From Ignicoccus pacificus DSM 13166 (lineage in GTDB: Archaea > Thermoproteota > Thermoprotei_A > Sulfolobales > Ignicoccaceae), in the NCBI GenBank assembly GCA_025340205.1, contig CP006868.1:390001-422000 (forward strand): a DNA stretch of 32,000 nt, read 5' to 3'. The notes below the pieces were generated by a model. The model was given only the letters and a program-made list of their open reading frames with translations, made no database searches and was not told the DNA's origin. Made by a program: the position numbers and the translations under genes. Positions 1,286-31,456 of the stretch are shown one piece after another (positions within the stretch are counted from its first letter, which is position 1; each line of letters begins with the position of its first letter).

Positions 1286-1374
1286 GCCGGGGTGCCCGAG
1301 CGGCCCAAGGGGGTGGCCTGGAGAGCCACTCCCCCTAACGGGGGGCGCGGGTTCGAATCCCGCCCCCGGCGCCA
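1286..1374 (+). tRNA. tRNA-Ser (anticodon GGA), class II with long variable arm, CCA encoded
   Basis: Acceptor GCCGGGG pairs with CCCCGGC. The anticodon stem is GTGGC/GCCAC with loop CTGGAGA, giving anticodon GGA. The variable arm is CCCCC-TAAC-GGGGG. The T arm is GCGGG-TTCGAAT-CCCGC, followed by discriminator G and CCA. Confidence 0.9.
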
Positions 1375-1511
1375 TGCTCCTTTTTACCTTTAGGGTGTCG
1401 TCTCTACATGCAACAGACCCAGAGATGAGAAACTGTGATTTCCGTCCCAAGTCTCCTCGTTCTAAAATCCCCAATCTCCATAGGGTAAAGTTAAACTATA
1501 TTCTGTAGCTT

Positions 1512-2597: not shown

Positions 2598-2640
2598 GAC
2601 AATTAGGGTGTAGCAAAAATAACTCCGTGTAGTACCAGAG

Positions 2641-3714: not shown

Positions 3715-4131
3715 CTAGCTCTGGCTTACTACTCTTATTGTGCTTTGTACTTTTCTTCTAACTCCCTCCACCTTATCGAACTCCTTATCCTCGCTCACAA
3801 TAATTTCTATTCCTTCTTCCATCATCAAGCCTACGTGTAAGGCATCGGAGGGCTTCAAGTTGTACTTGAGCATGAGATCCCTAGCCCTTTTCCAAGAACC
3901 TTCACCTAGTTGGAGCACGTTCACGAAGGGCAGTATCAAGTTATCTATGAAATCCAAGGAAATGCTATAGGGTACTGAGTACTTCCTCTTGGAGACCCAG
4001 ACTAACTCATCCAGCACTAGGACGTCCGTTACCAATGAGTAATCTGAAACGAGCTCCTCATAGCACCTTTCGTGCTCGTCCGATCCTAGTAGGACATATA
4101 CGAATAAGTTCGTATCGATAAATATTCTCAT
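3715..4131 (-). CDS. vapC: PIN-domain toxin VapC
   Basis: Starts MRIFIDTNLFVY, carrying the first PIN acidic residue. Later acidic motifs are VLDELV and SDALHV, with IVSEDKEF near the C-terminus. There is a 4-nt ATGA overlap with the upstream antitoxin gene. Confidence 0.85.
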   Translation of the reverse strand: MRIFIDTNLFVYVLLGSDEHERCYEELVSDYSLVTDVLVLDELVWVSKRKYSVPYSISLDFIDNLILPFVNVLQLGEGSWKRARDLMLKYNLKPSDALHVGLMMEEGIEIIVSEDKEFDKVEGVRRKVQSTIRVVSQS

Positions 4132-9993: not shown

Positions 9994-10761
9994 ATGAGGA
10001 AGGGAGCGCTCTACGTTTACTCCGCCGCAGCCCTCTGGTCGACCATAGGTCCCGCCTCCCTCGGAGACCCTTGGTCGGTCTCCTTCTTCCGACTGATATT
10101 CGCTGGAATTGCTTCGGCTAGGTTCTTCAAGCCCTCGAAGGACTTGACGCTCTTAGGCTTAATAATATTTCCTTTCTACGTAAGCTACGTGCTAAGCGTA
10201 AACACGGTCGGAGTAACCTTAGCAGTAGCGATGCTCTACACAGCCCCAGCTTGGGTGTCCCTCGTGGAAAAGCTCGAGGGAAGGGGATCCATCCTTCCCG
10301 CCCTCTTAGCCTCCCTCGGAGTCTACTTGCTCACGGGAGCTCCTAAGCTCAAGGAGAACTTCCTGATAGCTCTCCTTCCCGGCTTGCTCTACGCCTCACT
10401 CATACTTTATAGCAAGAAGCTTTTGAACGAGTGGAACGAGGAGGACTTGCTTTCCGGGAACGTCTACGCTTCCGTCTTATCGCTATCATTGATTCCACTG
10501 GTCAAGCTTAACTTGAGACCTCTGCTTTCAGGGCTCTACTTGGGAGTGATCTGCTCCACCTTGGCTTACTTGCTTTTCTACAGAGGACTGAAGGAGGTGG
10601 AGGCTTGGTACGCGAGCGTGGCGGCGACGTTGGAGCCCTTGTTGGCCTCCCTCTGGGGATTCCTTTTAGGAGAAAGGATTTCCTTGATCTCTTGGGGAGG
10701 GTTTGGTCTAATCTTGCTCTCACAAGGAATAGCTTACAAGGAGGAGCTCAGTCGTACATGA
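9994..10761 (+). CDS. EamA/DMT-family transporter
   Basis: 255 aa, polytopic, EamA-like. ATG preceded by GAGGGGAGG. Confidence 0.7.
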   Translation: MRKGALYVYSAAALWSTIGPASLGDPWSVSFFRLIFAGIASARFFKPSKDLTLLGLIIFPFYVSYVLSVNTVGVTLAVAMLYTAPAWVSLVEKLEGRGSILPALLASLGVYLLTGAPKLKENFLIALLPGLLYASLILYSKKLLNEWNEEDLLSGNVYASVLSLSLIPLVKLNLRPLLSGLYLGVICSTLAYLLFYRGLKEVEAWYASVAATLEPLLASLWGFLLGERISLISWGGFGLILLSQGIAYKEELSRT

Positions 10762-11698
10762 GTCTTGGATCGTCCCAGTACTCGCTCACGTCGCAAGCGT
10801 CCTCCCCGAGGAAACTCTTAACCTTCAGCGTGCCGTCATTATCTATTATTATCAAGTTTGAGTCGTACCTTCCCCTTTCGCAGAGTTTCTGGAAGCTCAT
10901 CTTGATTACCTCCAGCGATTGGGTTGTCATAGTTACCTTCTTCCTCGACTCTACCATCCACTCTAACGCCTTATCCAACAGCTCAGGGTGCATGGCCGTC
11001 TCTAACTCGTCTATGAACAAGTGGTTTATCTCTGGGGAACTCAAGTATATCTTCAAGGCAAAGGCCCTCTGAAGCCCTCTTCCGGCGGAGTAGAAGCAGT
11101 ACTCCTTCTCCCTATCCTTTCTAACCTCCTTGACGAATATCGCGTCCTCTCCCCAAGGGTTCTTCCTTAAAACAAGCTCGTAGGTTACGTCACTCAAGCT
11201 TATCTTGAGATCCTTCACCTTACCTATCTCCGGTAAGGTATACTTCGCTACCCCCTCTATGGTCTCGAGGGGAATTATGCAAGGAGTTAAGACAGCCAAG
11301 CCCTTCTTATTATTATCATCGCATCCCTCGAACTCATGCTTTATTCCCTCCTTGGTAACGTCTATTCTTAAGGCACATCCGTTTGAAGCCTTGAAGGTCA
11401 GAAGCGCCCCCTTCTCGTTTATTTCCTTTTTCAAATCGACCCACTTCCCTCCTAACTCTATCCTGGCCCTATCGTTGGGAAGGGAGGAGATCAAGGATCT
11501 CCTTAGATCTCCCCTAGCTGCAAAGAGAACCAAGTAGATGGGGAAGGAGCCCGGCGCCTCGTGGAGGAGGGTTAGGGTGGCGTAAGCTTCCAGTATGGTA
11601 CTCTTCCCGCTACCGTTCGGGCCCACGAGAACGTTGAAGTCGCTGATCGGAAGTTCTCCCTTAATCCCCCTGAAGCCTTCTATTTTCAGGCTGTCCAT
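10748..11698 (-). CDS. ABC/SMC-like AAA ATPase (AAA_15/AAA_21 class), no fused effector domain
   Basis: Starts IEGFRGI..., as in RecF/SMC-type proteins. Walker A is GPNGSGKST. The signature-like motif is YSAGRGLQRAF. Walker B/D-loop is HLFIDELETAMHP. The H-loop position reads TMTTQS. Confidence 0.8.
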   Translation of the reverse strand: MDSLKIEGFRGIKGELPISDFNVLVGPNGSGKSTILEAYATLTLLHEAPGSFPIYLVLFAARGDLRRSLISSLPNDRARIELGGKWVDLKKEINEKGALLTFKASNGCALRIDVTKEGIKHEFEGCDDNNKKGLAVLTPCIIPLETIEGVAKYTLPEIGKVKDLKISLSDVTYELVLRKNPWGEDAIFVKEVRKDREKEYCFYSAGRGLQRAFALKIYLSSPEINHLFIDELETAMHPELLDKALEWMVESRKKVTMTTQSLEVIKMSFQKLCERGRYDSNLIIIDNDGTLKVKSFLGEDACDVSEYWDDPRLMYD

Positions 11699-14709: not shown

Positions 14710-15155
14710 TCGAACCGGAATGAATAACGGTATTACTATTTCGTATCCTGAGAAGGTCGTCTTCTATGGATCTTTTTAAGTCAACTGCTTTCAAAGATCA
14801 CCATCACTACTTTCATTCCTTATTATTTACACTTCTCAATGATCACACATTAGGACATTTATGGTCTCCTTTCTTCCCTTCACCTTGAGCTCTACTCGTC
14901 TTTGAATATGAATTCTTCAATTCATTTGAAGACCAAGCAATTCTTTCCATTATCACATACATGGGAACGCCGATGATAATAAACTCATTCGTTTGACTAT
15001 TAGTTCCAATTAGGTAATTCTAATTGATTAAAGTAAAGCAAAACTGTTCTCATGAAAGCTTAAGTATTCAGGGTTATTAAGGCAGACAAATCAAGGCAAT
15101 GGGAAAGGAATGGCTTATTAGCTAATGGAAGAGCTAGTTAAATAGGAGAGTCACG
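14710..15155 (+). promoter_or_regulatory. CRISPR leader (446 bp, AT-rich, ORF-free)
   Basis: It lies on the side of the array with perfect repeats, while decayed repeats lie at the far end. It is AT-rich with TATA-like elements (GCTTATTAGC, GTTAAATAGG) within 45 nt of repeat 1. Confidence 0.6.
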
Positions 15156-16061
15156 GAAGAGTCACAATAGTGAATGGAAAGAGTTTGCCCAGGCCCAGCC
15201 CGAAATTGATGTGGATGCCGCCTTGAAGAGTCACAATAGTGAATGGAAAGACTCTATCACGGCTTCGATTAGCTTCTCGCTAGTCATTTCAGAAGAGTCA
15301 CAATAGTGAATGGAAAGTTGGAGGAGAAAAATAGGTGCTTCGAAGATACAGACGAACCCGGGAAGAGTCACAATAGTGAATGGAAAGTATTGGCATAATT
15401 CCCTTCCAAATGCATTCATCTTGGTAGTCAGAAGAGTCACAATAGTGAATGGAAAGCGAACTTGAAGTGGCCGAGCGAGTCCTTGTAGGCCACGAGGAAG
15501 CGCTGAAGAGTCACAATAGTGAATGGAAAGTACGGATGATACGGAGACGGACGGCTTGTCCTCGCCTTCGACGTACGAAGAGTCACAATAGTGAATGGAA
15601 AGCCTGAAGAAGTAGGCATCGGTCTTGTTTTCCTTGTATTCGACCTGAAGAGTCACAATAGTGAATGGAAAGTAGCTCGCTAGCGTAAGGAACGTCTTCG
15701 GGAAGCTCAGAAGAGTCACAATAGTGAATGGAAAGCACATTTTTGCCGTTTCGAACTGCCTAATGCAGAAGCCCAAGTTTGGAAGAGTCACAATAGTGAA
15801 TGGAAAGACTCGTCCCTCTCAATTAGGCGTTCGTAAATGATTTTGGCCAGAAGAGTTACAAGAGTGAATAGAAAGGATAATAAAGTTCCTGGAGGGGATA
15901 GGGGCGAGCCTAGCCAACTTGGGAGAGTTACAATAGTGAATGGAAAAGAACTCTCGGCTCCTATGAGAACTCACAAAAAGTGAATAGAAAGATCTAAAAT
16001 ATCGTCTCTGATACTGTCGAGTAGGGACATCTAAGAAGAAGTTATGATAATAAATAGAAAT
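15156..16061 (+). CRISPR. CRISPR array: 10 identical 26-nt repeats GAAGAGTCACAATAGTGAATGGAAAG plus about 4 progressively decayed repeats
   Basis: Perfect repeats start at 15156, 15225, 15292, 15362, 15431, 15505, 15577, 15647, 15710 and 15782. Decayed copies start at 15850 (3 mismatches), 15922 (3 mismatches), 15965 (indel plus mismatches) and 16035 (about 18/26). Spacers are 37-48 nt, except a 17-nt remnant before the 13th repeat. The repeat ends in ATGGAAAG, close to the ATTGAAAG 8-nt crRNA 5' tag, which fixes + orientation. Confidence 0.95.
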
Positions 16062-16229
16062 TAGCTATGGATCACGAAGTCTCTTGCCAGTACCCTTATC
16101 AATATCCTCTATGGTACAGAATCGCAAGATTCTCCCCTTTCTTGGATAAGGAGAGTTAAGCTGATACAAGAAGGGTTTCGTGTTATTACGTGGAAATATA
16201 TCCACCTAAAATTGAAGATATTTCAGTGC

Positions 16230-16526
16230 TCAAGGTCTTGGAGACTTCACATAGACTCCCTTCTTTCCCTCCCTCTCGATCTCCTCCTTTCTAGGAACCA
16301 AGTAAAGCCAGCTCTCCCCTAAGGTCTCTCCCGGTTTGTCGGGCCTTGAGGGGTTGAGGGCCTCTGAGGGGGTGTACATAGGTTCAAAACCCTCTATCTC
16401 TTCATCCTCGAGGAGTTTTTGGAATAGTTCAACCATCTCGTCCAAGTCCTTCTGAAGCCTCTCGATTTCCCCCTCACTCATCTTTATCTTTGCTAAAGCT
16501 ATAGCCTTCCTCGCGTCAACCTTCAC
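16230..16526 (-). CDS. gatC: Asp/Glu-tRNA amidotransferase subunit C
   Basis: 98 aa. The segments AKIKMSEGEIERLQKDLDEMVELFQKL..., EPMYTP and NPSRPDKPGE follow the GatC pattern (LA.l.l.eeE...), with a ReD-like element. Confidence 0.75.
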   Translation of the reverse strand: MKVDARKAIALAKIKMSEGEIERLQKDLDEMVELFQKLLEDEEIEGFEPMYTPSEALNPSRPDKPGETLGESWLYLVPRKEEIEREGKKGVYVKSPRP

Positions 16527-20302: not shown

Positions 20303-21040
20303 ATGAAGGTCCTCTTTCTTGGAACCGGTCCCGCCTCTGGCTGGCCCTCCTACGGCTATCCTAAGGAGAAGAGGAGGAGGCCCAGCACCTATGCGATTCA
20401 ATGCGGGGAGACCTTCCTGTTCCTCGACACGGGCTCGGTAGAGGCGGTGATGGATGGAATAAAGATGATGGCGGAAAGTGGAATAGAGAGGGTCTCGGGA
20501 GTGCTCCTCTCCCACGCTCACAACGACCACTGGGCGGGTCTCAACAACTTGAGGTGGGGTCCTCGGACCAAGGTGTTCTTGACGGAGGATACCCTCTACC
20601 ATCCCTACTTCAAGGAGATAGCGGATAAGCCCTTCTCCCTTGACCTAACTCCCATCGAGTTCTTCGAGGAGTTCGAGGTGGGAAAGGTAAAAGTCACTCC
20701 TTTCCCCTTGAACCACATTCCCGGGACCTCCGGATTTCTAGTAGAGTGTAATGGAAGGAGAATAGCGTATGCGCTAGACACCAAGGGGCTTCCAAAGGAG
20801 AGCATGGAGTTCTTGAAGGGAAAGGTCGACTTGCTGATAATAGATTCCGCCTTACCGATAGGGGAGACGGGCCTTCACAACACCTACGAGGAGGCCTTGC
20901 TCATAGGGAAGGAGATAGAGGCCAAGGTAGCAGCGGTTCACTTGCTTCCGATGGTGAGGGAGGAGGAGGTGCTGAGGAAGGCTAAGGAGATAGGGGTTGA
21001 GGCAGCGGTACCGGACGATCTATCTATCTATGAGATTTAG
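20303..21040 (+). CDS. metallo-beta-lactamase fold hydrolase (PhnP-like class)
   Basis: Starts MKVLFLGTG. The HxHxDH motif is LLSHAHNDHWAG. The track ORF starts at 20267; the ATG at 20303 gives the canonical N-terminus. Confidence 0.8.
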   Translation: MKVLFLGTGPASGWPSYGYPKEKRRRPSTYAIQCGETFLFLDTGSVEAVMDGIKMMAESGIERVSGVLLSHAHNDHWAGLNNLRWGPRTKVFLTEDTLYHPYFKEIADKPFSLDLTPIEFFEEFEVGKVKVTPFPLNHIPGTSGFLVECNGRRIAYALDTKGLPKESMEFLKGKVDLLIIDSALPIGETGLHNTYEEALLIGKEIEAKVAAVHLLPMVREEEVLRKAKEIGVEAAVPDDLSIYEI

Positions 21041-21628
21041 ACAAACAGTTTCGACAAGATCTTCCATTAAGCCTCAATCTTGAATTTGATAATACTTGTG
21101 TTCGGAACGTCGAGTCTTATCTGGATTTTTAAAAGATTCGTCGGATTATGTACATTCTCTTGATTAATTAATTCTAGTAGTGAAGCACTCTTAATGGGGT
21201 TAACTCTATCATCTGACCTCTCATCTGAGGCTTTTGATGCTGATGTATGCCATGAACGTTGAACCGAGATCGGTGTTGCGTCCCTGATTATACTTTCAAA
21301 ATCCCTACTTAGGAATTGTAACTACTACCGCCGAGGTCAGAAAGGGCTTCATAATCGTATCTAGGCAACCAATAATAATCCCTCTAAAAGGGGAATCACC
21401 GAAATTCCATAGCAAATAAAGCACGTTTGCTAGGGATCCAGTAGCGGTCTTTCTGACATTACTCAGAAAGGTAGAGGAACCAACCAAAATTATCGTTATC
21501 GAACCTTCTTAACAACATTTAAGATCGGGAGGATAGACCGGACAGGAGTCATTGCAGGCCTCATTCATTAGGAGAAGGCCGATCCTGAAACTTCTATATG
21601 TCTTTTCTGGTAAAAGTATTGTCTATTC

Positions 21629-22102
21629 TTATTTTATCACACAGTTTACACAGGCTACTTTAGCTCCAAGCAACTCTACTTTAACGTTTGTGTAGATAGT
21701 TGGGAGGAATACGTAGATCACATGCCTTCCCTGAGGTAGGTACCTTTCAGCGCTAACGACCCTCACGACCTCATCTCGCTCGATATCTACTATCTTGTAC
21801 CCCTTTACGTTTCCTGGCGAAAGTACATCAACAACCATTACTATTACATAAGGATCAGTAGTGTTTCCAAATACTATGGCCTTTGGATCGTCTATTATCT
21901 TAGCCGCGTACATGTTAGCAGTCATGTTTAGGTAATAACTCCCGGGGTTTACGTCTAGCAAGCGGGCTTCGTAGATCGTTAATATCGGCTCTTGCGTTGT
22001 TATTTTCCTCGGTGTTAGCAACGCGCTGCCTAGAATCGCCGCTAGCGTTACAGTTAGCATCAGAAGAACACCTATTTCTATGGTAGTTAGACCCCTACGC
22101 AT
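21629..22102 (-). CDS. type IV pilin-like protein with class III signal peptide
   Basis: N-terminus MRRG|LTTIEIGVLLMLTVTLAAILGSALL: basic residues, Gly, about 22 hydrophobic residues, and Glu at +5 as in bacterial type IV pilins. A beta-rich domain follows. The start overlaps the upstream pilin-like gene by 16 nt. Confidence 0.65.
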   Translation of the reverse strand: MRRGLTTIEIGVLLMLTVTLAAILGSALLTPRKITTQEPILTIYEARLLDVNPGSYYLNMTANMYAAKIIDDPKAIVFGNTTDPYVIVMVVDVLSPGNVKGYKIVDIERDEVVRVVSAERYLPQGRHVIYVFLPTIYTNVKVELLGAKVACVNCVIK

Positions 22103-22659
22103 GATACCACCGTCCATTGAGTGGATGTTAAGTTGACGAAACAGAGGGCGAGCTTCTCCAAGCCACTAGGCATTACTATGTGAAGGTATGCATAGGGGTA
22201 GAATGTGAACGAAGTGCAAGGAACCTTTGGATCGAGCGAGGAAGATGACAGCGGGTGAAACTGGTATAATGCAATGCCATTTACGATCACCCTAGTAAAG
22301 TTGCCGTAGATGAAATATGAAAGAGGTTTACCGTCGCAGCTGAGTTGGACAACTAGATAAGCCCGATAAGAGGGAGCAGTAAGCTCTGCGTCACAGTAGG
22401 TCACGTTAGAGTAAGCGGGATCTTTTGATAAGTCAGTTACTGAGGGGACCGTAGGATCTATAGAAACAATATAGTTACCAGTACAATCTATTCTGAGAGT
22501 AGAAAGTTCGGCTTGTTGCGTAAGTCCTTTTAGCTGAGCGGTGCTCCTTCCGACGCCTTGTTGCCACTGGGTCAAGAGCCACCCTAACGCTCCTAAGACT
22601 ATCATGGCAAGCAACAAGCTTCCCAAGATCTCCGAGACGCCACGCTTGATCGTTAACAC
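22087..22659 (-). CDS. type IV pilin-like protein with class III signal peptide
   Basis: N-terminus MLTIKRG|VSEILGSLLLAMIVLGALGWLL matches the archaeal prepilin pattern (K/R)G(V/L)(S/T). The ectodomain is beta-rich, contains Cys and has N-x-S/T sequons. Confidence 0.7.
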   Translation of the reverse strand: MLTIKRGVSEILGSLLLAMIVLGALGWLLTQWQQGVGRSTAQLKGLTQQAELSTLRIDCTGNYIVSIDPTVPSVTDLSKDPAYSNVTYCDAELTAPSYRAYLVVQLSCDGKPLSYFIYGNFTRVIVNGIALYQFHPLSSSSLDPKVPCTSFTFYPYAYLHIVMPSGLEKLALCFVNLTSTQWTVVSCVGV

Positions 22660-22775
22660 CCGCTGTTTCTATCACTCTCTGTCAACTCTTTAGAGTTCTG
22701 GGTGCCGTTGCCAGCCGGAAATCCAGCCGAGTACTTTAGTCAAACGAGAGCGGCGTACAAAACTAGGAAGGTAAT

Positions 22776-25700
22776 ATGAGAGTGATTAGGAAAGGTGGAA
22801 TAGGAAACATAATAGCGTTGACTGTCATGATAATATTACTCGCCGCCACACTAGTACTCCTACTGAACACCATTTCAAGTACCCTCACGATAACTCAAAG
22901 CGGCTCTAAGTCGATCCAAAAAGCCAAGGTGAGCTATGAGATCACAAAGAAACTAAACATGTGTTACTTCACCGGATATCTAGGATCTGTTCCAGTAATA
23001 GCAATAAAGACCAACGATCCCGCCACCCTTTGTACGTACCTCCAAGCTCTTCAGCTTGTTGAATATGGAGCCAGTAACTCTACCATGAGCTTCCTAATTC
23101 CGGGTAGCGATATAAGGAACGAGTTAAATAAGGTACTCTACAGCGTGTGCAAAGAAGGCCTCACGAACAGCGTTACCGTAGACACGGATACGGGAACTAA
23201 GATGGAGGCGCAAGTAGTGCTTACCAGAGATCCGACCACTTTAGGTGTTGAGAAGCTACAAGCTCTGGTCAAGGGAGTGGGTTGGGTGCCGATAGGCAGT
23301 TGTAACACCCAAGTGGGCTCAGCGGTGAACATACAGTCGACCACCATACTCTATAGCATAGGACCTGTGACGATCATAGCTGCTCAAGGAACTAATCCCT
23401 TGGTCTATATGTGCCCCTCTCCCAGACAGGTCTTCGGGGATAGCAACGCCTACGTGATAGCGATGATGCTTACTCCAAACATGACTACAGCAGTTAACTC
23501 CTATAGAAACCACATCCCTACTAGCGTTGTTATCGATTTAAAAGACCTCATCAAGAAGGTGGCAACCTCTGGCTCACCTCTGCTGTTACCTTCTGGAGAT
23601 GTCAATCCCAATGACTATCTCAGAGGAATCAGAGTGATCCAGATGAGGTACGGCGGAGGTGTGCTTCCCGGAGCCTTCGGAACCGGCAGTAACTTGCCTT
23701 GGAGTTACACCTTCCTTAACCTATCCGCTGCTCAACCTCTCTATAAGAGCAGCGGAGTGCTGACGTTCGACTTCTACGTGAACAGCACCCAAGGAATTCT
23801 CTCTACTGAGGCAGCAGGCTATGGAGCTCTGGTCTGTCTCTATGTAGGAATTGCCGGTAGCGTTCCAGCCTCATCCACCGGCGAACCCTTTGATGGTAAG
23901 CTTATCTCACCTTCTAACGACGTCACGCCTCCCGGAGCCAAATATCCATGTTATAGCTTCTATGGCTACGATGTTTGCTATGAAGCCTTTGCCAATGCTA
24001 CCTCTGCCTTCGCCACCAACCTCACCAGCGCCGCTGGATTGAAATTCGAGGGACTGCAGGAACCCGTTGACAGCACAGTCAGGGTAAACAGCTTGGTCAT
24101 AAACAACCCTACCGATCAAGCGATCCTCGGAGGTTGTGGCTACGCTATTAGAATCGACTTAAACAAAACGGCTCCCGACGCTGTGGGGAAGCCCATAACA
24201 ATCAGAGGACCTCAAGGAGAGAACATTCCATTCTGTTATGAAACCATATATGGAAACTGTACCACTGACCCCACCAAGGGAGATGGGGCGGTATGGATCA
24301 AGATTCCTGCTGGAATGATCATTCCACCCAAGGGAAGCGTGAGCTTGACCATAAAGACCGGAAAGAACGGAGCGGTAAACCCGAAGGACGTATTCCCGTC
24401 CTACGTAGACTTCAGCTGGTACGACAAGAGTAAGGTAATAGGAGCACATTTCGTGCCGTATTTCCCCAACTCTTGGAGCGTGATAACGAACGGCGGAGCG
24501 CAGCTGGGGCAGCTGGTAGCGATACAGTTCAACACTACGAACGATATCCTCTTAGGAAAGAACTTCACCTTAGTTGCAGACGTCAGATGGGACGGAGCAC
24601 CGAATTACTACTATCCGGACAAGTTACTACCCTTCTTCGATCCACTGAGCTTCAGAGGGTGGGTCGCTGAATACTTGGACACCATATATCCCGGAACAGC
24701 GGACGAAGGCGCGGTGGGTTACTGGCTCTATCCCATAATATATGAAATCGATCCAACGGCCACGGGCGACGTAGGTTGGATGCTGGCCATCTACAACGGC
24801 TATCCGACAGCTTTCATCATAAAGTATGACCCAACTCTAGGAGTAGAGCTGGTACCGGAGGCAGTCGCCCCCAATCCCATAGCCCCTGGCGTGAGGTACT
24901 TCATAGTGCTGAGCAACGATACAAGTGGCATGAACATCAGCGTGATACCGGCCGAGGAGTTCAGCGCCTCAACGGTGAAGCCGCTGGCCGACGTTCCGGC
25001 ACCGACTAATCAAGACGTGGTGTTGGTAGCTGACACTAACAGCCTACTAAATCTTCTCTACAACCAGAACTCGAACGCCATAGTTCTATCCGATGCTGGT
25101 ATATACAGAGTGTACAATACAGTCGACGGCGACGTAACTCAGCTAGCTCAGATGGACGTCTATCAGATAGTAGGCGGTAGGAGGAGTCAAGTCGGTACGT
25201 TTTACCACTACACAAAGTTATATACAATATCATCGTTCAGTGGAAGGATCTACAATGTAACGGCCTTTAACGTGACGATAACAAATCCCGCGAAAGCGAT
25301 CAATTGTTACCTCACTCCCAGCACGTGCTCCAACGTCTCAGAGGTGCTTTCTCTAAGACCCTTCGGTTCAAAGGTTATACCAAACATAACTGCTGATAGT
25401 AGTAACGGAACCGTCGTCGCCTTGCCTATAAATGTAACCATAATAGGAAGCTATCCCATGACGCCGACCAGTACTACCACACTACCGCTCTACGGCTGGG
25501 CAACTGGTCAAGCGTACTACACTTCGTCAGTAGGAGAACTAATAGGTCAAGTCGTAACCATGACGGCAGGAAAGATAAACATCCAAACTCTAACAATAAC
25601 TTCCTACGTTGGAAACGTACCCGTCACTACCTACACTACACAAGTAACTTCCCTAGAGCCCTACTCCACCACCTCAGCATACGCGTACATCAATAGTGTG

Positions 25701-27338
25701 AGGTACGCCACATGGGGATTCAGAACAACGTTGCTCGCTCTGGGAATTCATGTCAACGAGTTCGTGCCGGGATCCTTTAGGTACTACGACCCGGCTGAGG
25801 GAGTACTGCCTTTGGGCGCCAAGGTCGAGCTAGCCTTCATAAACAGCACCAAGCCTACCGACTACGTCCTAGCTGAGTTAGACGGAGTTCCCACGGGTCA
25901 GAGCGCTATCAATCTGACAAGAGTCATACTCTACGCTAATACCAGCATGATCACCAACGGCCACATAGTACTCAACGGCAGCTTAGGAATAGGCTCTTGG
26001 AATCTGATGATACTTAAATCCTTCCCAACGATTTCAAGCTGTTCGGGTAACGCCTTCAGTATAGTGACTCTGAGCAACGGAGGCAGCGACGCCTTCTACG
26101 ATAGCCAGTATGACTATGCCAACGTGTACTATGCCTATGCTCCAGCTCTGATAAGCGACGGCAGGAGCTGGATGAAGTGGATGCTCTATGAGGACAGCGT
26201 AGACGGTTATAGAGTAGAGTACGTAAGGAGCGGTATAGGAGTTAACGCTTGGAGACTCTACTACTACCGCTTCAAGGTGGCTCCTACGAGCACCTTCACT
26301 AACCCCAACACTTGGTACTATACAAAGGTTTACGTTGACATGAACACATGGCAGACTCTCTTCACGGTGAACATCGGAGGTCCGAGCGGTCCGCAGCTCT
26401 TAGCAGACTACGGCGACTTGAGCAGTACCTCGCTGGTAAGCGAGTATCCTCAGCTACTGCCCAGCGACGTCAAGTACATCGGAATAGGCTACACCGCCGT
26501 AAGGAGTGGTGAATACGTGAGAAAGCTAGCATATGTGTTCGCCTACAGACAAGCGCCCCCAACCTTGGAGGTACTCTACCATAAGTCTGACATAAACTCA
26601 CCTCTAATCGATGCTCCTTTGATATACGTAAAGAAGAGCGGAGTAATAGCTAGCAACGTGAGCGGCGTACCCCAGCCCTTCAACGCCACTTACCATCTGT
26701 ACGGAGCTCAGTTCAACTACCTCTACCCAAGCGACTACCTAGAGTACAACCAGACCGTTAACTACGGCTACTTAACTGATAACGCCGACAACTTGACCGT
26801 CCCATTTAGCAACATAAGCTCTGCTCTCAAGGCAGGAAGGATCCAGATCGCTGGGCTGTGGAGCGACAAGCCCTTCAACATGCTTAGGATGGACGAGGTA
26901 CCACTGAACGTGTCGATAGTTGGCAAGTGGATAGTGTATGCATGGAGTAACGTTACTGAACCTCTGGTGCTAAGCGGTGCCAACAACACTAACGTGACGC
27001 TATACATGAACAACGTAACTGTGGCACTGTCGCCCTACACTAGCGACCTTATAATAACATTTAACAACATAACCAAGATGGAGGGACCAGTGGCAATAGG
27101 ACTGTTCTTCAACAATACGTTCAGTAGAAGCATAGTTATCTTAGCAAACGTGACGGACGGCACCGGAAACTATAAGCTGGTCGATGGCTTGCTGAGCTGG
27201 GAAGCCCTCAACAGCGATCTGAGCAAGCTCAACGGAACTAGCATAATAATGATAAATAAGATGGACTATCACATGACGGTAAACGGACCTATGTGCGTGC
27301 CAATACCGCCTGAGATGGGCGGTATGGGAACGTGCTGA
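22776..27338 (+). CDS. giant (1520 aa) extracellular glycoprotein with prepilin-like N-terminus; S-layer or adhesin candidate
   Basis: Uninterrupted 4.56-kb ORF with SD-like GGAAGGTAAT before the ATG. N-terminus MRVIRKG|GIGNIIALTVMIILLAATLVLLL. Composition is beta-rich (Y, T, N, V, G). I count about 36 N-x-S/T sequons by hand. There is no second hydrophobic segment at the C-terminus. Confidence 0.85.
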   Translation: MRVIRKGGIGNIIALTVMIILLAATLVLLLNTISSTLTITQSGSKSIQKAKVSYEITKKLNMCYFTGYLGSVPVIAIKTNDPATLCTYLQALQLVEYGASNSTMSFLIPGSDIRNELNKVLYSVCKEGLTNSVTVDTDTGTKMEAQVVLTRDPTTLGVEKLQALVKGVGWVPIGSCNTQVGSAVNIQSTTILYSIGPVTIIAAQGTNPLVYMCPSPRQVFGDSNAYVIAMMLTPNMTTAVNSYRNHIPTSVVIDLKDLIKKVATSGSPLLLPSGDVNPNDYLRGIRVIQMRYGGGVLPGAFGTGSNLPWSYTFLNLSAAQPLYKSSGVLTFDFYVNSTQGILSTEAAGYGALVCLYVGIAGSVPASSTGEPFDGKLISPSNDVTPPGAKYPCYSFYGYDVCYEAFANATSAFATNLTSAAGLKFEGLQEPVDSTVRVNSLVINNPTDQAILGGCGYAIRIDLNKTAPDAVGKPITIRGPQGENIPFCYETIYGNCTTDPTKGDGAVWIKIPAGMIIPPKGSVSLTIKTGKNGAVNPKDVFPSYVDFSWYDKSKVIGAHFVPYFPNSWSVITNGGAQLGQLVAIQFNTTNDILLGKNFTLVADVRWDGAPNYYYPDKLLPFFDPLSFRGWVAEYLDTIYPGTADEGAVGYWLYPIIYEIDPTATGDVGWMLAIYNGYPTAFIIKYDPTLGVELVPEAVAPNPIAPGVRYFIVLSNDTSGMNISVIPAEEFSASTVKPLADVPAPTNQDVVLVADTNSLLNLLYNQNSNAIVLSDAGIYRVYNTVDGDVTQLAQMDVYQIVGGRRSQVGTFYHYTKLYTISSFSGRIYNVTAFNVTITNPAKAINCYLTPSTCSNVSEVLSLRPFGSKVIPNITADSSNGTVVALPINVTIIGSYPMTPTSTTTLPLYGWATGQAYYTSSVGELIGQVVTMTAGKINIQTLTITSYVGNVPVTTYTTQVTSLEPYSTTSAYAYINSVRYATWGFRTTLLALGIHVNEFVPGSFRYYDPAEGVLPLGAKVELAFINSTKPTDYVLAELDGVPTGQSAINLTRVILYANTSMITNGHIVLNGSLGIGSWNLMILKSFPTISSCSGNAFSIVTLSNGGSDAFYDSQYDYANVYYAYAPALISDGRSWMKWMLYEDSVDGYRVEYVRSGIGVNAWRLYYYRFKVAPTSTFTNPNTWYYTKVYVDMNTWQTLFTVNIGGPSGPQLLADYGDLSSTSLVSEYPQLLPSDVKYIGIGYTAVRSGEYVRKLAYVFAYRQAPPTLEVLYHKSDINSPLIDAPLIYVKKSGVIASNVSGVPQPFNATYHLYGAQFNYLYPSDYLEYNQTVNYGYLTDNADNLTVPFSNISSALKAGRIQIAGLWSDKPFNMLRMDEVPLNVSIVGKWIVYAWSNVTEPLVLSGANNTNVTLYMNNVTVALSPYTSDLIITFNNITKMEGPVAIGLFFNNTFSRSIVILANVTDGTGNYKLVDGLLSWEALNSDLSKLNGTSIIMINKMDYHMTVNGPMCVPIPPEMGGMGTC

Positions 27339-27360
27339 TGAGCTAGAGATCCGATCATCC

Positions 27361-27380
27361 ATCCTTTTGATAAAGAGGAT
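27361..27380 (+). terminator. hairpin 3' of the giant gene (ATCCTTT-TGATAA-AGAGGAT)
   Basis: 7-bp stem (one G-U) starting 23 nt after the stop codon, followed by AT-rich sequence. Confidence 0.3.
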
Positions 27381-27738
27381 TAATATCTCGGAAAACGATA
27401 AAACATTTTAAATATGCATTCCGTTTTCTTGTGTTTTATTTCCTTATCCAACCTAAGGACTTCACAAATTTTTGTTTCTCCAAAGAAGATGAAAGCTTTC
27501 TGGGAAGTAGCATTGCTCCCTACATTAGCGTAAACTCTTAGAACCTTCGTAATGGCGGTGCAAGTCTAAATAGATAGAATATCCTTATAAAAGAGGCTAT
27601 TCAACATGGCTCTACGCTATTTTAGTTAAGTTCTTGTTGATTTGAGGCTACCAAAAGCAGTAGACGTATGAGATCCCAGCAAGTGGAGACGGCTCGAAGC
27701 TTTTTGTCCTCCCTCCCACTTCCATTAGGGAATCGATA

Positions 27739-28185
27739 TTGCCGTACACGTGCATCTCCGTGGAGGACAGCTTTCCCGCCGCTCATTACACCAACCCTAG
27801 GCTATCTCCAGCCGGGACCCTCCACGGCCACAACTGGAGGGTGAGGGTGACAGTCTGCAAGGAAGGGAGGAGCGGATGGGTGATAGACGCGGTGAAGCTA
27901 AAGGAGAAGCTTAAGGAGATAATAGACCCCTTCCGCTTCAGCTTGATAGTTCCGGAAACCGATGCTAAGACTTGGCTCGCTCCTGAGGGCCTTAGGGAGA
28001 TCATCGAGGAGAACATAGGAGTTAAGGTTAGGATAGCGGTCCTCCCGTATCCCTTGGTCTCAGCTGAGACCTTTGCACACTACGTCCACAGCAGGCTGAG
28101 CGAGGAGATCAGCTGCGACTGCTTGAAGGTGGAGGTGGAGGAGTCTCCGGGGGAGATGGCGACCTACGACGAGTGCCTCCAGTAA
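27739..28185 (+). CDS. queD: 6-carboxytetrahydropterin synthase / 6-pyruvoyl-tetrahydropterin synthase family (QueD)
   Basis: The segments FPAAHYT...LHGHNWRVRVTV...GWVIDAVKLKEKL and AETFAHYV follow the PTPS/QueD pattern, including its metal-binding His residues. Confidence 0.8.
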   Translation: MPYTCISVEDSFPAAHYTNPRLSPAGTLHGHNWRVRVTVCKEGRSGWVIDAVKLKEKLKEIIDPFRFSLIVPETDAKTWLAPEGLREIIEENIGVKVRIAVLPYPLVSAETFAHYVHSRLSEEISCDCLKVEVEESPGEMATYDECLQ

Positions 28186-29943: not shown

Positions 29944-30882
29944 TTGCCTCCAAAAGGGGCTGAAGACTTAGCCTTGAACCTTATGATAGCATTGACGCAG
30001 ATACACGTAGGCATAGGTCGAGCTCCCGGAGCGGTGGACCTCCCAATAGCTAGAGACGCCTTCGGTTTGCCCTATATCCCCGCGAGCTCTATTAAGGGAA
30101 CAATAAAGTCGGCTTGTATTAGAACGTTCAATTGTAGTAGGGAAAACGCTAAGGAGTGTCCATGTCTCCAAATATATGGAAGAGATCCAAGGCTTGAGGA
30201 TGAGGTCAGCAGCGAGAACTCTTATCTGAGCCCGGTGAACTTCACAGATGCGTTCCTCTTGCTATTTCCCGTAAGGGTAGACTCACCTAAGGAGGGTCTT
30301 AGGTATGGCTATGTAACCTCCATGTTCAGCTTGAACAAGTTCGCTACACAAATACTCCCATTCTTAAGCAAGGAAGGAAAAGAATGGAATTTGAAGTGCT
30401 GGGTCGAGGATTCAGAGTTCAGCGGCTATCTCAACGACGTTTACATAGGCGAGGTTCGGGGCACTCTCCGCCTCTCAGAGGTACCTTATATCAATGCTAT
30501 CCTTGAACGCCTAGATGTTCCTATTGTCAAGTACTTACTTCAAAGGGGAGACATCTACGTTCTGAAGGATAACGATTTCAAGGAGGTGGTGGAAGCCGGA
30601 ATCGTTAGACAGACAAGAGTAAGGCTTGACTTCGTTAGGAAGACCGTACAGAGGGGAGCCTTGTGGACCGAGGAGTACCTTCCGGAAGGAGCTGTCTTTA
30701 GCTTCCTAACTGTGACAAAGACCGTCCTAGCAAGGAACGTAATCGTTGAAGCATCAAGGGCTATGAACGATCATGAAGAGGTTCTTAGGGAGAACTTATT
30801 TACATTCGAGATAGGTGGAAAGGAAACCATAGGTAAGGGGATGGTGAGGGTAGTTGAGGGGCCTAGAGTCTGTTGCCTATGA
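29944..30882 (+). CDS. cmr4: type III-B CRISPR RAMP protein Cmr4 (Cas7 family backbone subunit)
   Basis: N-terminal block LTQIHVGIGRAPGAVDLPIARDAFGLPYIPASSIKGTIKS matches the Cmr4 pattern TP.H.GsG...g.vD.PI.R....g.P.ipgSS.KG.lRs. The C-terminal glycine-rich loop is FEIGGKETIGKGMVRV. Confidence 0.85.
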   Translation: MPPKGAEDLALNLMIALTQIHVGIGRAPGAVDLPIARDAFGLPYIPASSIKGTIKSACIRTFNCSRENAKECPCLQIYGRDPRLEDEVSSENSYLSPVNFTDAFLLLFPVRVDSPKEGLRYGYVTSMFSLNKFATQILPFLSKEGKEWNLKCWVEDSEFSGYLNDVYIGEVRGTLRLSEVPYINAILERLDVPIVKYLLQRGDIYVLKDNDFKEVVEAGIVRQTRVRLDFVRKTVQRGALWTEEYLPEGAVFSFLTVTKTVLARNVIVEASRAMNDHEEVLRENLFTFEIGGKETIGKGMVRVVEGPRVCCL

Positions 30883-30883
30883 C

Positions 30884-31456
30884 ATGAGCGTTGCAGCTTG
30901 CAAGATGTTGGGTGCCCTTGCCAGCTCTTGTGATACCAGAAACGTGAAGGACTATCCAGACAGCTTGTACAGCAGGGCCAGAAGCGCTCCCCAGCTCATG
31001 GCCACTTGGGGGCCGGCCCACTTCTTGATCTTCTATGCATCTAAGAGCTTGGATGATATCGACTCGAGAAGGGCAGAATTCCTTTGGAGAGCATGGAAAA
31101 GTGTAATGATGGGAAGGGATAGGGAGGAAGTGAAGGGATTTGTAGCGTGTGAGATAGTTAGTAAGATTAGCGACACCTCGATGGGCTACCTCCTCTATAC
31201 GTTAGCGCTCTCAGAGGCTATAGTTAGGCTGATGGAAAGGGAACAGAACTTCGGAAGACTAGATGAGCTATTCGATTTCGTAATAAGGCTTTACGTTAAG
31301 CCGGAGGAAGGGAAGGAGCTGGGAGCTCCCAGCGTCGGAACGCTGAACCTCTTAGTCCAGACGCTCAGCAGACTAATTGAAACTAAGGTCCTACCAATAG
31401 TAAATACAAGAGGTACAGATGCCAAGATAGAATACATGATTCAAAACTGCTGGTGA
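30884..31456 (+). CDS. cmr5: type III-B small subunit Cmr5 (Cas11 family)
   Basis: All-helical, about 190 aa. RARSAPQLMATWGPAHFLIFYASK resembles the Cmr5 'lP..i...Gl.q.laFl..K' motif. The ATG lies 1 nt after the cmr4 stop. Position between cmr4 and a cmr1-like gene. Confidence 0.65.
   Translation: MSVAACKMLGALASSCDTRNVKDYPDSLYSRARSAPQLMATWGPAHFLIFYASKSLDDIDSRRAEFLWRAWKSVMMGRDREEVKGFVACEIVSKISDTSMGYLLYTLALSEAIVRLMEREQNFGRLDELFDFVIRLYVKPEEGKELGAPSVGTLNLLVQTLSRLIETKVLPIVNTRGTDAKIEYMIQNCW

What the first reader, a model, noticed from the sequence alone, without database searches (positions are those of the whole stretch)
21629..27338. Divergent cluster of three prepilin-type proteins, one a 1520-aa giant, with no assembly machinery nearby
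All three ORFs begin with the archaeal class III signal-peptide pattern: a short basic n-region, Gly, then about 20 hydrophobic residues.
- MLTIKRG|VSEILGSLLLAMIVLGALGWLL (190 aa)
- MRRG|LTTIEIGVLLMLTVTLAAILGSALL (157-162 aa, with Glu at +5 as in bacterial type IV pilins)
- MRVIRKG|GIGNIIALTVMIILLAATLVLLL (1520 aa)

The two small genes overlap, which fits an operon. They are transcribed divergently from the giant gene across a 116-bp region. No PilB/FlaI-type ATPase, PilC/FlaJ platform protein or prepilin peptidase lies within the window. The cluster is bracketed by unusually long AT-rich non-coding DNA, 588 bp on the left and 400 bp on the right.

A glycoprotein of more than 160 kDa carrying a pilin-type N-terminus, next to two ordinary-sized pilins, does not match the Aap, Ups or archaellum layouts I know. 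It could be a distinct surface filament or tip-adhesin system, or a pilin-anchored S-layer-like sheet.
Basis: partly seen in the sequence, partly recalled or inferred. Interest (0 to 1): 0.75.

Follow-up and report, generated by a model that had tools for sequence, protein, structure and literature searches.

The report
Ignicoccus pilin-like giant adhesin gene trio
Three neighbouring genes of the hot-vent archaeon Ignicoccus pacificus encode two small pilin-like proteins and one 1520-residue sugar-coated pilin-like protein, which always travel together in related genomes and most likely form an adhesive cap or accessory part of a type IV pilus-like fibre built by machinery encoded elsewhere.

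Summary
Three adjacent ORFs are the only ones in the 32-kb window with a prepilin-type N-terminus, and no pilus ATPase, platform protein or peptidase lies in the window. The window is Ignicoccus pacificus (IPA_02365 and IPA_02375 matched; the gene between them was not looked up).

The trio is linked in every related genome or contig long enough to show it, although the flanking genes differ. In two distant vent contigs the gene orientation differs too.

- **Small B:** it has a nearly invariant RG|LxxLE N-terminus. It folds confidently into a helix plus beta-sandwich. Its best structural matches, though weak, are archaeal type IV pilins.
- **Giant:** it has one N-terminal hydrophobic helix and a DUF2341-type domain. 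It carries twice the N-glycosylation sites expected. Its I. hospitalis orthologue, Igni_0370, was detected by proteomics.
- **Machinery:** I. hospitalis has a single pilus ATPase. That gene, the peptidase gene and the known fibre gene are all unlinked, so missing local machinery is normal here.

Best reading: a lineage-specific minor-pilin plus modular-pilin adhesin module assembled in trans. This is a new variant of a known kind, moderately interesting. The S-layer idea is unsupported. Peptidase cleavage and cellular location are untested.

The parts
21629..22102 (-). Small B: 157-aa pilin-like protein (IPA_02365, annotated as 162 aa from 22117). Its N-terminus is MRRG|LTTIE, with Glu at +5.
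   Evidence: The ORF is. The start is fixed by orthologue N-termini and by the conserved 16-nt overlap. The family has only 18 members among 1.84 billion representatives, with consensus M[RK][RK]G[LIF]x[TA]LE. The AF2 model has pLDDT 89.3, with a helix at 4-28 followed by a beta-sandwich. The top Foldseek PDB hits are archaeal type IV pilins 8fk7_A (E=0.01) and 6w8u_A (E=0.05). There is a weak profile hit to the N-terminal helix of the PDB chain 6xxd_A, named PilA (E=0.22).
22087..22659 (-). Small A: 190-aa pilin-like protein with a GTG start. Its N-terminus is MLTIKRG|VSEILG.... It has 6 Cys and ends in SCVGV.
   Evidence: The ORF is. GTG is the only start codon upstream of the KRG motif. Orthologues in five genomes align at 31-56% identity, with conserved K[RK][GA]xSE[IL]L. 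There is a weak NCBIfam UpsA hit over residues 5-53 (E=0.021, below cutoff).
22660..22775 (.). 116-bp divergent intergenic region, presumably holding both promoters.
   Evidence: The sequence is. CTTTAG-type A/T boxes lie about 33 nt upstream of the GTG at 22659 and about 39 nt upstream of the ATG at 22776. This is my own reading and is not tested. A semi-conserved CCGT box appears in the alignment of five species. Palindromes are seen in only some species.
22776..27338 (+). Giant: 1520-aa modular pilin-like glycoprotein (IPA_02375).
   Evidence: It is 100% identical to IPA_02375 of Ignicoccus pacificus DSM 13166. It has a single hydrophobic segment at residues 6-39, and 36 N-X-S/T sequons against 16.1 +/- 3.5 in shuffles. 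Homologues of 1275-2088 aa match at 33-37% identity (best local alignment), 25-41% in the multiple alignment.
22776..22880 (+). Giant residues 1-35: basic n-region MRVIRKG, then the GIGNIIALTVMIILLAATLVLLL hydrophobic helix.
   Evidence: The [KR][GA]GG[IV] motif is conserved in all eight homologues. The AF2 model shows a 49-residue N-terminal helix (9-57) at low confidence.
24069..24416 (+). Giant residues 432-547: DUF2341-type domain containing an FCYETxxGxC insert.
   Evidence: This is the most conserved block of the family. The Pfam DUF2341 score is 16.4 bits (E=0.013, cutoff 23.4) for the window fragment. It is 29.7 bits for the I. hospitalis orthologue and 104.7 bits over three copies for P0006. 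AF2 pLDDT is about 72-86 here.
24723..25115 (+). Giant residues 650-780: confidently predicted all-beta domain, possibly a lectin-like jelly roll.
   Evidence: AF2 pLDDT is 82-86 for residues 650-730 and 62-79 for 730-780, with consecutive beta-strands. Foldseek gives only weak hits: tetanus toxin Hc (prob 0.60), CBM40 (0.54), PAPP-A (0.47) and galectin-7 (0.41). These are a hint, not an assignment.
27294..27335 (+). Giant C-terminal Cys motif (C1507...C1520). Orthologues end GPYC[VI]KC.
   Evidence: Matching C-terminal Cys motifs occur in small B (CxxC) and small A (SCVG[AV]).

Best explanation
The trio is a lineage-specific accessory module of the Ignicoccus type IV pilus-like system.

**Proposed mechanism (inferred).**
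1. All three proteins are made with class III signal peptides and inserted into the cytoplasmic membrane.
2. The genome's single A24 prepilin peptidase cuts them after the conserved Gly.
3. The single VirB11-type ATPase/TadC machine, encoded elsewhere, extracts them from the membrane.
4. The giant is far too large to be a repeating filament subunit, so it sits at the distal end.
5. The two small pilins dock it onto the filament core through their N-terminal helices. This resembles a minor-pilin priming or tip complex.
6. The giant's glycosylated DUF2341 and beta-rich domains mediate adhesion.

**Shown here.**
- The prepilin-type N-termini and their conservation.
- Obligatory gene linkage.
- The pilin-like fold of small B.
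- The extracytoplasmic glycoprotein character of the giant and its DUF2341 domain.
- Expression of the I. hospitalis orthologue, from published proteomics.

**Inferred only.**
- Cleavage by the peptidase.
- Incorporation into a filament.
- Tip position.
- An adhesive role.
- Which filament is involved. The Iho670-type fibre is the obvious candidate, because only one machine exists in I. hospitalis.
For: 1. **Prepilin N-termini.** Only these three genes among 621 six-frame candidates match a prepilin rule. The cleavage-site motifs are conserved across homologues: giant [KR][GA]GG[IV], small A K[RK][GA]xSE, small B RG[LIF]x[TA]LE.
2. **Linkage.** The trio is adjacent in I. pacificus, I. hospitalis (Igni_0372/0371/0370), I. 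islandicus, the JGI/MAG loci L008/L009, L007 and L013. Flanking genes differ between species. In the distant vent contig L015 the order is A-like, B, giant on one strand; L016 holds the end of an upstream ORF, B and the giant in the same order. Linkage therefore survives a change of orientation.
3. **Small B fold.** The AF2 model has pLDDT 89.3 and pTM 0.71, with an N-terminal helix plus beta-sandwich. The best PDB structural matches are archaeal type IV pilins over the full length.
4. **Giant.** It has a single N-terminal hydrophobic helix, 36 sequons against 16 expected, and a DUF2341 domain by orthology. DUF2341 giants with class III signals are predicted pilus-tip adhesins in Methanococcales (PMC4858521). 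The M. maripaludis one was hit repeatedly in a transformation screen alongside pilus genes (PMC10133366).
5. **One machine.** I. hospitalis has exactly one VirB11-type ATPase (PMC4858521 Table S3). Igni_1009-1011 and Igni_1405 are unlinked to any pilin gene.
6. **Expression.** Igni_0370 was detected at 220/276 spectra.
7. **Glu pattern.** Glu+5 is kept in small B and absent from the giant. This is the pattern of tip-most subunits such as GspK in bacterial systems (my own knowledge; an analogy, not tested).
Against: - No experimental cleavage, filament or localisation data exist for any of the three.
- The giant's +1 Gly is atypical for class III signals.
- The small B structural matches are weak (E=0.01-0.05, TM about 0.3, none <= 0.001).
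- Small A could not be modelled.
- The giant model is poor (pLDDT 55), so its N-terminal domain is not shown to be pilin-like beyond the helix.
- DUF2341 is below the Pfam cutoff in the window protein itself.
- Igni_0370 raw spectral counts (220/276) equal those of the fibre protein Igni_0670 (241/143). Length-normalised, the ratio is 0.2-0.45, which is high for a tip-only protein. Igni_0371 and Igni_0372 were not detected at all.
- The I. pacificus peptidase and ATPase were not seen, because only the window is available.
Confidence: 0.55

Rival explanations
1. The trio builds its own separate thin filament. One small pilin is the major subunit and the giant sits at its tip. It uses the same ATPase/TadC machine as the Iho670-type fibre but is independent of that fibre.
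For: The module is self-contained and always inherited as a unit. None of the three shows sequence similarity to any solved pilin, Iho670 included. Crenarchaeal pilins are thought to be serviced in trans by shared machines (PMC4858521).
Against: Igni_0371 and Igni_0372 gave zero spectra whereas the giant gave 220-276. That is the opposite of what a major subunit would show. The only I. hospitalis appendage described in the papers I read is the Iho670 fibre, reported as a single 33-kDa protein (PMC4187195).
Confidence: 0.2
2. The trio is a non-filamentous or pseudopilus-like envelope complex. Pilin-type signals are used only to anchor or shortly extend a large glycoprotein from the inner membrane. 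This would be analogous to the Sulfolobus bindosome. In this double-membraned archaeon it might act as a tether or part of the 3-6 nm filament matrix in the inter-membrane compartment.
For: The giant is fairly abundant relative to Iho670. Class III signals on non-pilus proteins are known from the bindosome (PMC4858521). I. hospitalis has a filament/tether network of unknown composition between its two membranes (PMC5468417). The family is confined to the Ignicoccus lineage.
Against: No substrate-binding or other enzymatic domain was found. Heavy sequon enrichment and a DUF2341 domain fit an exposed adhesin. No data link the matrix to pilins; the only protein localised to it is the V4R protein Igni_1332.
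Confidence: 0.15
3. The three are ordinary Sec-inserted signal-anchor (type II membrane) proteins. Their N-termini only resemble prepilin signals, and they have no connection to the type IV pilus machinery.
For: No peptidase cleavage has been shown. The giant's +1 Gly is atypical. There are no above-threshold hits to any pilin family.
Against: The basic-Gly junction is conserved exactly at the start of the hydrophobic stretch in three unrelated families. Glu+5 is nearly invariant in small B across 17 members. The small B fold best matches archaeal pilins. The three families align with each other only in register at this motif.
Confidence: 0.07
4. The giant is a pilin-anchored S-layer-like sheet protein.
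For: It is large, glycosylated and beta-rich, and it was detected in the proteome.
Against: Ignicoccus has no S-layer by electron microscopy (established knowledge). No S-layer family hit was found. Length-normalised abundance (RSpC 48-91) is far below that of the outer-membrane pore protein Igni_1266 (RSpC 776/519).
Confidence: 0.02

Closest known systems
[quoted passage not shown]
   Same: Both are very large proteins with a prepilin-type N-terminus and DUF2341. Both are accompanied by several small non-major pilin-like proteins and have a predicted tip-adhesin role (PMC4858521). The M. maripaludis gene is genetically tied to a pilus-dependent process (PMC10133366).
   Different: The Ignicoccus trio is not inside a pilus locus; no ATPase, TadC or peptidase is nearby. 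It was given no arCOG in the I. hospitalis table. The 430-residue N-terminal region and both small partners have no relatives outside the Ignicoccus lineage. Homology to the methanococcal proteins beyond DUF2341 was not tested.
Iho670 fibre of Ignicoccus hospitalis (Igni_0670)
   Same: It comes from the same genus and has a prepilin-type signal cut by the single peptidase Igni_1405. Its gene is likewise unlinked to the assembly machinery (PMC4187195). It is the likely filament partner.
   Different: There is no detectable sequence similarity. Profile searches of all three families against PDB sequences returned no Iho670 chain. That the Iho670 structure, 5KYH, is in that copy is my recollection. 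Iho670 is a 33-kDa major subunit, whereas the trio has a 160-kDa member.
Bacterial minor-pilin tip complexes with a large or modular member (T2SS GspI-J-K; T4P minor pilins with PilY1; CofB/TcpB; Streptococcus sanguinis PilB/PilC modular pilins). These are recalled from my own knowledge.
   Same: Both combine a few small pilins with one oversized pilin-like protein that carries adhesive or lectin modules. The oversized member lacks Glu+5, while a small partner keeps it.
   Different: There is no sequence or demonstrated structural homology. The archaeal signal type has a basic residue at -2. This is an analogy only.
Sulfolobus bindosome (class III signal peptides on sugar-binding proteins)
   Same: Both show prepilin-type signals on large non-filament-forming extracytoplasmic proteins serviced by a T4P-like ATPase/TadC pair (PMC4858521).
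   Different: No substrate-binding-protein domain is present. The trio has two dedicated small pilins.

Membership tests
[quoted passage not shown] | A short basic n-region ending in [KR]-[GA], directly followed by about 20 hydrophobic residues | tested here: met
   All three proteins match, and they are the only such genes in the window. The motif is conserved in orthologues. Caveat: the giant has Gly at +1.
[quoted passage not shown] | Cleavage by an A24 prepilin peptidase (PibD/FlaK/EppA type) | not testable with these tools
   This needs N-terminal sequencing or an in vitro assay. I. hospitalis has one such peptidase, Igni_1405.
[quoted passage not shown] | An N-terminal alpha-helix packed on, or followed by, a beta-sandwich globular domain | tested here: inconclusive
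   Small B: the confident AF2 model has this architecture, and the top Foldseek hits are archaeal pilins, but at E=0.01-0.05 and TM about 0.3. Giant: a helix at 9-57 is followed by strands, at low pLDDT. Small A was not modelled.
[quoted passage not shown] | The genome encodes a VirB11-type ATPase and a TadC/FlaJ platform | not testable with these tools
   None is present in the window, and the rest of the I. pacificus genome was not available. In I. hospitalis they are Igni_1009-1011.
DUF2341 large pilus-associated proteins (Makarova, Koonin and Albers 2016) | A Pfam PF10102 (DUF2341) domain | tested here: inconclusive
   The window protein scores 16.4 bits against a cutoff of 23.4. Among aligned homologues only the I. 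hospitalis protein (29.7 bits) and P0006 (104.7 bits) pass; P0005 (19.1) and P0003 (13.6) do not. The block is the most conserved in the family.
DUF2341 large pilus-associated proteins (Makarova, Koonin and Albers 2016) | Encoded within a type IV pilus locus alongside the ATPase, TadC and pilins | tested here: not met
   No machinery genes lie within 32 kb here. None lies within 10 kb in I. hospitalis, I. islandicus, L007 or L008.
Iho670 fibre protein family | Sequence similarity to Igni_0670 | tested here: not met
   Profile searches of PDB sequences at E <= 10 returned no Iho670 chain for any of the three families. That the Iho670 structure is in that copy is my recollection, not checked.
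Archaeal S-layer proteins | An S-layer family domain and a lattice-forming major envelope protein | tested here: not met
   There are no S-layer Pfam or NCBIfam hits. The genus lacks an S-layer (established knowledge). Abundance is moderate.
Bindosome-type class III substrate-binding proteins | A solute-binding-protein domain behind the class III signal | tested here: not met
   No SBP family was detected in any member.

The most novel reading that the evidence does not exclude
The trio may not be an ordinary pilus-tip adhesin. It could be a type IV pilin-derived structure specific to the double-membraned Ignicoccus cell. One form would be the unidentified 3-6 nm tether/filament matrix that links the inner membrane to the outer cellular membrane. 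Another would be the element that carries or anchors fibres through the outer membrane. A role at the contact site with Nanoarchaeum is also possible. The evidence does not exclude this. The family is confined to this lineage, and the giant is abundant relative to the fibre protein. Its normalised count was about 1.9-fold higher in co-culture (RSpC 48 to 91), but that figure was not statistically assessed.
Probability: 0.1. Interest if true: 0.8.

Novelty: new variant of a known kind. Interest (0 to 1): 0.45.

Why it matters
Ignicoccus is the best-studied archaeon with two membranes and the only known host of Nanoarchaeum equitans. How its fibres adhere, how they are primed and how they pass the outer membrane is unknown. 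Only the major fibre protein has been identified.

This trio gives three concrete candidates for the missing minor-pilin and adhesin components, and one of them is expressed. Antibodies, fibre proteomics and the existing peptidase assay could test them directly.

It would also extend the idea of modular pilins, in which a pilin helix is fused to large adhesive modules. That idea has been documented experimentally mainly in bacteria, and in archaea only predicted for Methanococcales. The extension would be to Crenarchaeota.

Tried and rejected
- **Structure of giant residues 1-1200.** The job failed. The 1-840 model is mostly low confidence, and its Foldseek hits are uninformative multi-Ig receptors.
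- **Second DUF2341 copy.** An apparent copy at giant residues about 1081-1290 (hhalign probability 96.7%) was an artefact. P0006's extra DUF2341 copy had been forced into those alignment columns. Without P0006 the signal vanished (E=0.11).
- **Homology among the three families.** Only the signal/helix region aligns, at probability below 7%. They are not detectable paralogues.
- **Mobile cassette.** No flanking direct or inverted repeats and no Rfam hit were found in 20900-27800.
- **Shared operator in the divergent promoter.** There is only a loose CCGT box, with palindromes in some species.
- **Locus-tag literature search.** It returned nothing for Igni_0369-0372, Iho_0370, IPA_02375, EYM_05220, WP_011998405 or A8A9F1.
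- **Papers not held.** Mueller 2009, Meyer 2014 and Szabo 2007 were unavailable. The exact FlaFind rule could therefore not be quoted, and I used my own rule.
- **Genome-collection scan.** It returned only one full-length relative.

Full report
**What is in the sequence**

The window carries three ORFs at the stated coordinates.
- 21629-22117 (-), 162 aa.
- 22087-22659 (-), 190 aa, GTG start.
- 22776-27338 (+), 1520 aa.

The giant is 100% identical to IPA_02375 of Ignicoccus pacificus DSM 13166. The 162-aa product is IPA_02365.

I wrote a FlaFind-like rule: [KR][GA] in the first 16 residues, then 22 hydrophobic residues without charge after +6. Applied to all 621 start-to-stop candidates of >= 60 aa in six frames, it picks only these three genes and one internal start in an unrelated membrane ORF. 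The clustering of three such N-termini in 5.7 kb is not chance.

Pfam scans of the trio and of 30 other ORFs of the window found only unrelated functions. Examples are SUI1, metallo-beta-lactamase-fold proteins, PTPS, HMG-CoA reductase, EamA, a GNAT, a PIN domain and a RAMP. There is no VirB11/T2SSE ATPase, TadC/FlaJ or A24 peptidase. Eleven ORFs gave no hit.

**Corrections to the observation**
- Orthologues of the smaller protein begin MRRG/VRRG.
- With the ATG at 22102 (157 aa), the overlap with the stop of the 190-aa gene is 16 nt. The same 16 nt is seen in I. hospitalis, I. islandicus, L008 and L013.
- The 588-bp and 400-bp AT-rich flanks are real.
- Gaps of 521 and 724 bp occur elsewhere in the window.
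- In I. hospitalis the neighbouring genes abut or overlap the module.
- The flanks contain no repeats and no Rfam match.

**Conservation of the trio**

The giant has few relatives, at 33-37% identity in the best local alignment:
- I. hospitalis ABU81553.1 (1341 aa).
- I. islandicus EYM_05220 (1275 aa).
- Two JGI proteins.
- A 2088-aa protein from assembly GCA_054016855.1.

Two metagenomic fragments were found with an N-terminal profile.

In every case where the contig is long enough, a gene of about 190 aa and a gene of about 150-166 aa lie next to the giant, divergently transcribed:
- I. hospitalis.
- I. islandicus.
- L007.
- L008.
- L009.
- L013.

The flanking genes differ between species:
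- TatC/Sua5 and a CLP1-type GTPase in I. hospitalis.
- An RNA ligase-like gene (with CRISPR-Cas genes 4-7 kb further on) and a polyprenyl synthase in I. islandicus.
- A metallo-beta-lactamase-fold protein and PTPS in I. pacificus.

In the more distant hydrothermal-vent contig L015 the order is small A-like, small B, giant on one strand; L016 holds only the end of an upstream ORF, small B and the giant in the same order. Linkage therefore survives both rearrangement of the surroundings and inversion within the module. This is strong evidence that the three products work together.

**The small proteins**

Small B belongs to a tiny family. Only 18 proteins reach E <= 0.001 among 1.84 billion representatives; the full-length members are 142-169 aa. 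The N-terminal consensus is M[RK][RK]G[LIF]x[TA]LE, so Glu is at +5 relative to the predicted cut. A review states that many archaeal class III substrates lack Glu+5, while a basic residue at -2 is typical (PMC3387779). Small B has both features.

With a 17-sequence alignment, AlphaFold2 gave a confident model with pLDDT 89.3 and pTM 0.71. It has a helix at 4-28, a linker, and a beta-sandwich with one extra helix.

Foldseek against the PDB ranks the Pyrobaculum calidifontis archaeal type IV pilus first (8fk7_A, E=0.01, 154 aligned columns). The P. arsenaticum pilin is seventh (6w8u_A, E=0.05). No hit passes 0.001, and TM-scores are about 0.3. A profile search of PDB sequences gives only a weak match of the N-terminal helix to chain 6xxd_A, named PilA (E=0.22).

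Small A has K[RK][GA]xSE[IL]L followed by a long hydrophobic and then amphipathic stretch. It has a sub-threshold NCBIfam UpsA match over residues 5-53 (E=0.021).

The three families align with one another only across the signal and helix, in register at the basic-Gly junction.

**The giant**
- Its only hydrophobic segment is N-terminal, and it has 16 Cys.
- It has 36 N-X-S/T sequons against 16.1 +/- 3.5 in shuffles, whereas cytoplasmic proteins of the window have 0-2. It is therefore an extracytoplasmic N-glycoprotein candidate.
- The most conserved block is residues 432-547, with FCYETxxGxC and G.NGA motifs.
- That block is a DUF2341 domain:
  - 29.7 bits in the I. hospitalis orthologue.
  - 104.7 bits over three copies in P0006.
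  - 16.4 bits in the window protein, below the cutoff of 23.4.
- The 1-840 AlphaFold model is poor overall (pLDDT 55).
- The model does show a 49-residue N-terminal helix. It is confident for the DUF2341 block (pLDDT mostly 72-86) and for an all-beta domain at about 650-780 (pLDDT mostly 75-86, dipping to 62).
- Foldseek hits are weak and only hint at a lectin-like jelly roll.
- An apparent second DUF2341 copy was an alignment artefact.
- All three families carry conserved Cys at the extreme C-terminus:
  - Giant: GPYC[VI]KC.
  - Small B: CxxC.
  - Small A: SCVG[AV].
- The role of this Cys motif is unknown. It might be disulfide stabilisation or inter-subunit bonding.

**Context from the sister species**

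By gene order and lengths, the I. hospitalis trio is Igni_0370 (1341 aa), Igni_0371 (190 aa) and Igni_0372 (166 aa). All are listed as hypothetical, without an arCOG, and positive for signal peptide and TM (PMC3149612 supplement).
- Igni_0370 was detected at 220 and 276 spectra (RSpC 48 alone, 91 in co-culture with N. equitans).
- The two small proteins gave no spectra.
- The fibre protein Igni_0670 gave 241 and 143 spectra (RSpC 227 and 204).

I. hospitalis has exactly one VirB11-type secretion ATPase and no archaellum ATPase (PMC4858521 Table S3). That ATPase is Igni_1009, next to two TadC genes, Igni_1010 and Igni_1011. The single prepilin peptidase is Igni_1405.

The machinery, the peptidase, the known fibre gene and the trio are thus four separate loci. 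The absence of machinery next to the trio is normal for this genus. Any pilin-like protein must also share the one machine.

No paper in the searchable library names these genes.

**Interpretation**

The best-supported reading is a lineage-specific accessory module of the type IV pilus-like system. Two small pilins and one modular giant pilin are processed and assembled in trans. The giant is displayed at the filament end as an adhesin.

The closest described kind is the set of large DUF2341 proteins with class III signals in Methanococcales pilus loci. These were predicted to be PilY1-like tip adhesins accompanied by minor pilins (PMC4858521). One of them was hit repeatedly in a transformation screen together with pilus genes (PMC10133366).

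The Ignicoccus module differs in three ways:
- It is an orphan trio away from any machinery.
- Its 430-residue N-terminal region and both small partners have no relatives outside its lineage.
- It occurs in a crenarchaeon with two membranes.

Bacterial tip complexes such as GspI-J-K, and modular pilins, offer a working analogy. The oversized member lacks Glu+5 while a small partner keeps it. This rests on my own knowledge and was not tested.

**Weak points**
- Cleavage, filament incorporation and location are all inferred.
- The giant's +1 Gly is atypical.
- The structural matches are weak.
- The giant's spectral counts are high for a tip-only protein, while its partners were undetected. Small, hydrophobic, glycosylated pilins are poor targets for tryptic proteomics, and brittle fibres are lost during harvest. 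The evidence cuts both ways.

**Rivals**
- A separate thin filament built by the trio.
- A non-filamentous or pseudopilus-like envelope complex. It might be connected with the uncharacterised 3-6 nm filament/tether matrix between the two membranes (PMC5468417).
- Plain signal-anchor proteins.
- An S-layer-like sheet. This last has no support.

**Verdict**

This is a real, conserved and expressed gene module that has not been characterised. It is a new variant of a known kind, namely a pilin-borne adhesin with dedicated minor pilins. It is of moderate interest, mainly because it supplies testable candidates for the unknown accessory parts of the Ignicoccus fibre system.

Noticed in passing
window 27294-27335; 21629-21660; 22087-22110 (and orthologues in L001, L004, L005, L007, L008): All three protein families end in conserved cysteine motifs. 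The giant ends GPYC[VI]KC, or C...C spaced by 12 residues in I. pacificus. Small B ends CxxC. Small A ends SCVG[AV]. This could be an inter-subunit disulfide or metal site, or a D-region-like loop.
   Followed up: partly
L015 1399-4316 and L016 1-3191 (hydrothermal-vent metagenome contigs): Distant relatives keep the trio but with all three genes on one strand (A-like, B, giant). The giant there has at least two FCYE-type DUF2341 blocks. The small A-like gene has no canonical start codon upstream of its KGASEIV motif.
   Followed up: partly
window 22660-22775 and the equivalent regions of L001, L004, L007, L008: The divergent intergenic regions share a loose G(T/G)T(T/G)CCGT(T/A)CG box. I. hospitalis and I. 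islandicus have palindromes there (GTTTCCGTACGAAAAC; CGTTCGCGTT/AACGCGAACG). This may be a regulator site.
   Followed up: partly
window 1286-3705: A tRNA-Ser (GGA) gene is followed by a low-GC stretch (0.37-0.40). It holds a 361-aa ORF without Pfam hits and a methyltransferase-domain ORF. A PIN-domain gene follows at 3715-4131. This could be an integrated element.
   Followed up: no
window 29944-31456: A RAMP-superfamily (Cas) protein gene and a following 200-aa ORF lie at the right end of the window. They suggest a type III CRISPR-Cas module that continues beyond the window.
   Followed up: no
window 10748-11698: An AAA_21/AAA_15 (AbiEii-like, SMC-N type) ATPase gene lies on the minus strand. 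It is a possible defence or toxin-antitoxin-related ATPase.
   Followed up: no
window 14710-15230, 15792-16515, 21041-21628, 27339-27738: There are several long non-coding gaps (400-724 bp). GC is about 0.40-0.42 in the windows over 14710-15230, 21041-21628 and 27339-27738, and about 0.44 over 15792-16515. The gap at 21041-21628 holds a 60-aa ORF (21305-21487, minus strand) with no assignment. There is no Rfam match in 20900-27800.
   Followed up: partly
I. hospitalis Igni_0669 (literature table, not in the window): The gene next to the Iho670 fibre gene encodes a 548-aa hypothetical protein. It is positive for signal peptide and TM and was undetected by proteomics. It may be another large pilin-like partner of the fibre.
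   Followed up: no
protein P0027 (hit of the small B profile search): This 404-aa protein, matched in five stretches, is built of tandem repeats of a segment resembling the small B N-terminal helix (…YLKALEVGVLACII…). Its origin is unknown and it is probably unrelated.
   Followed up: no
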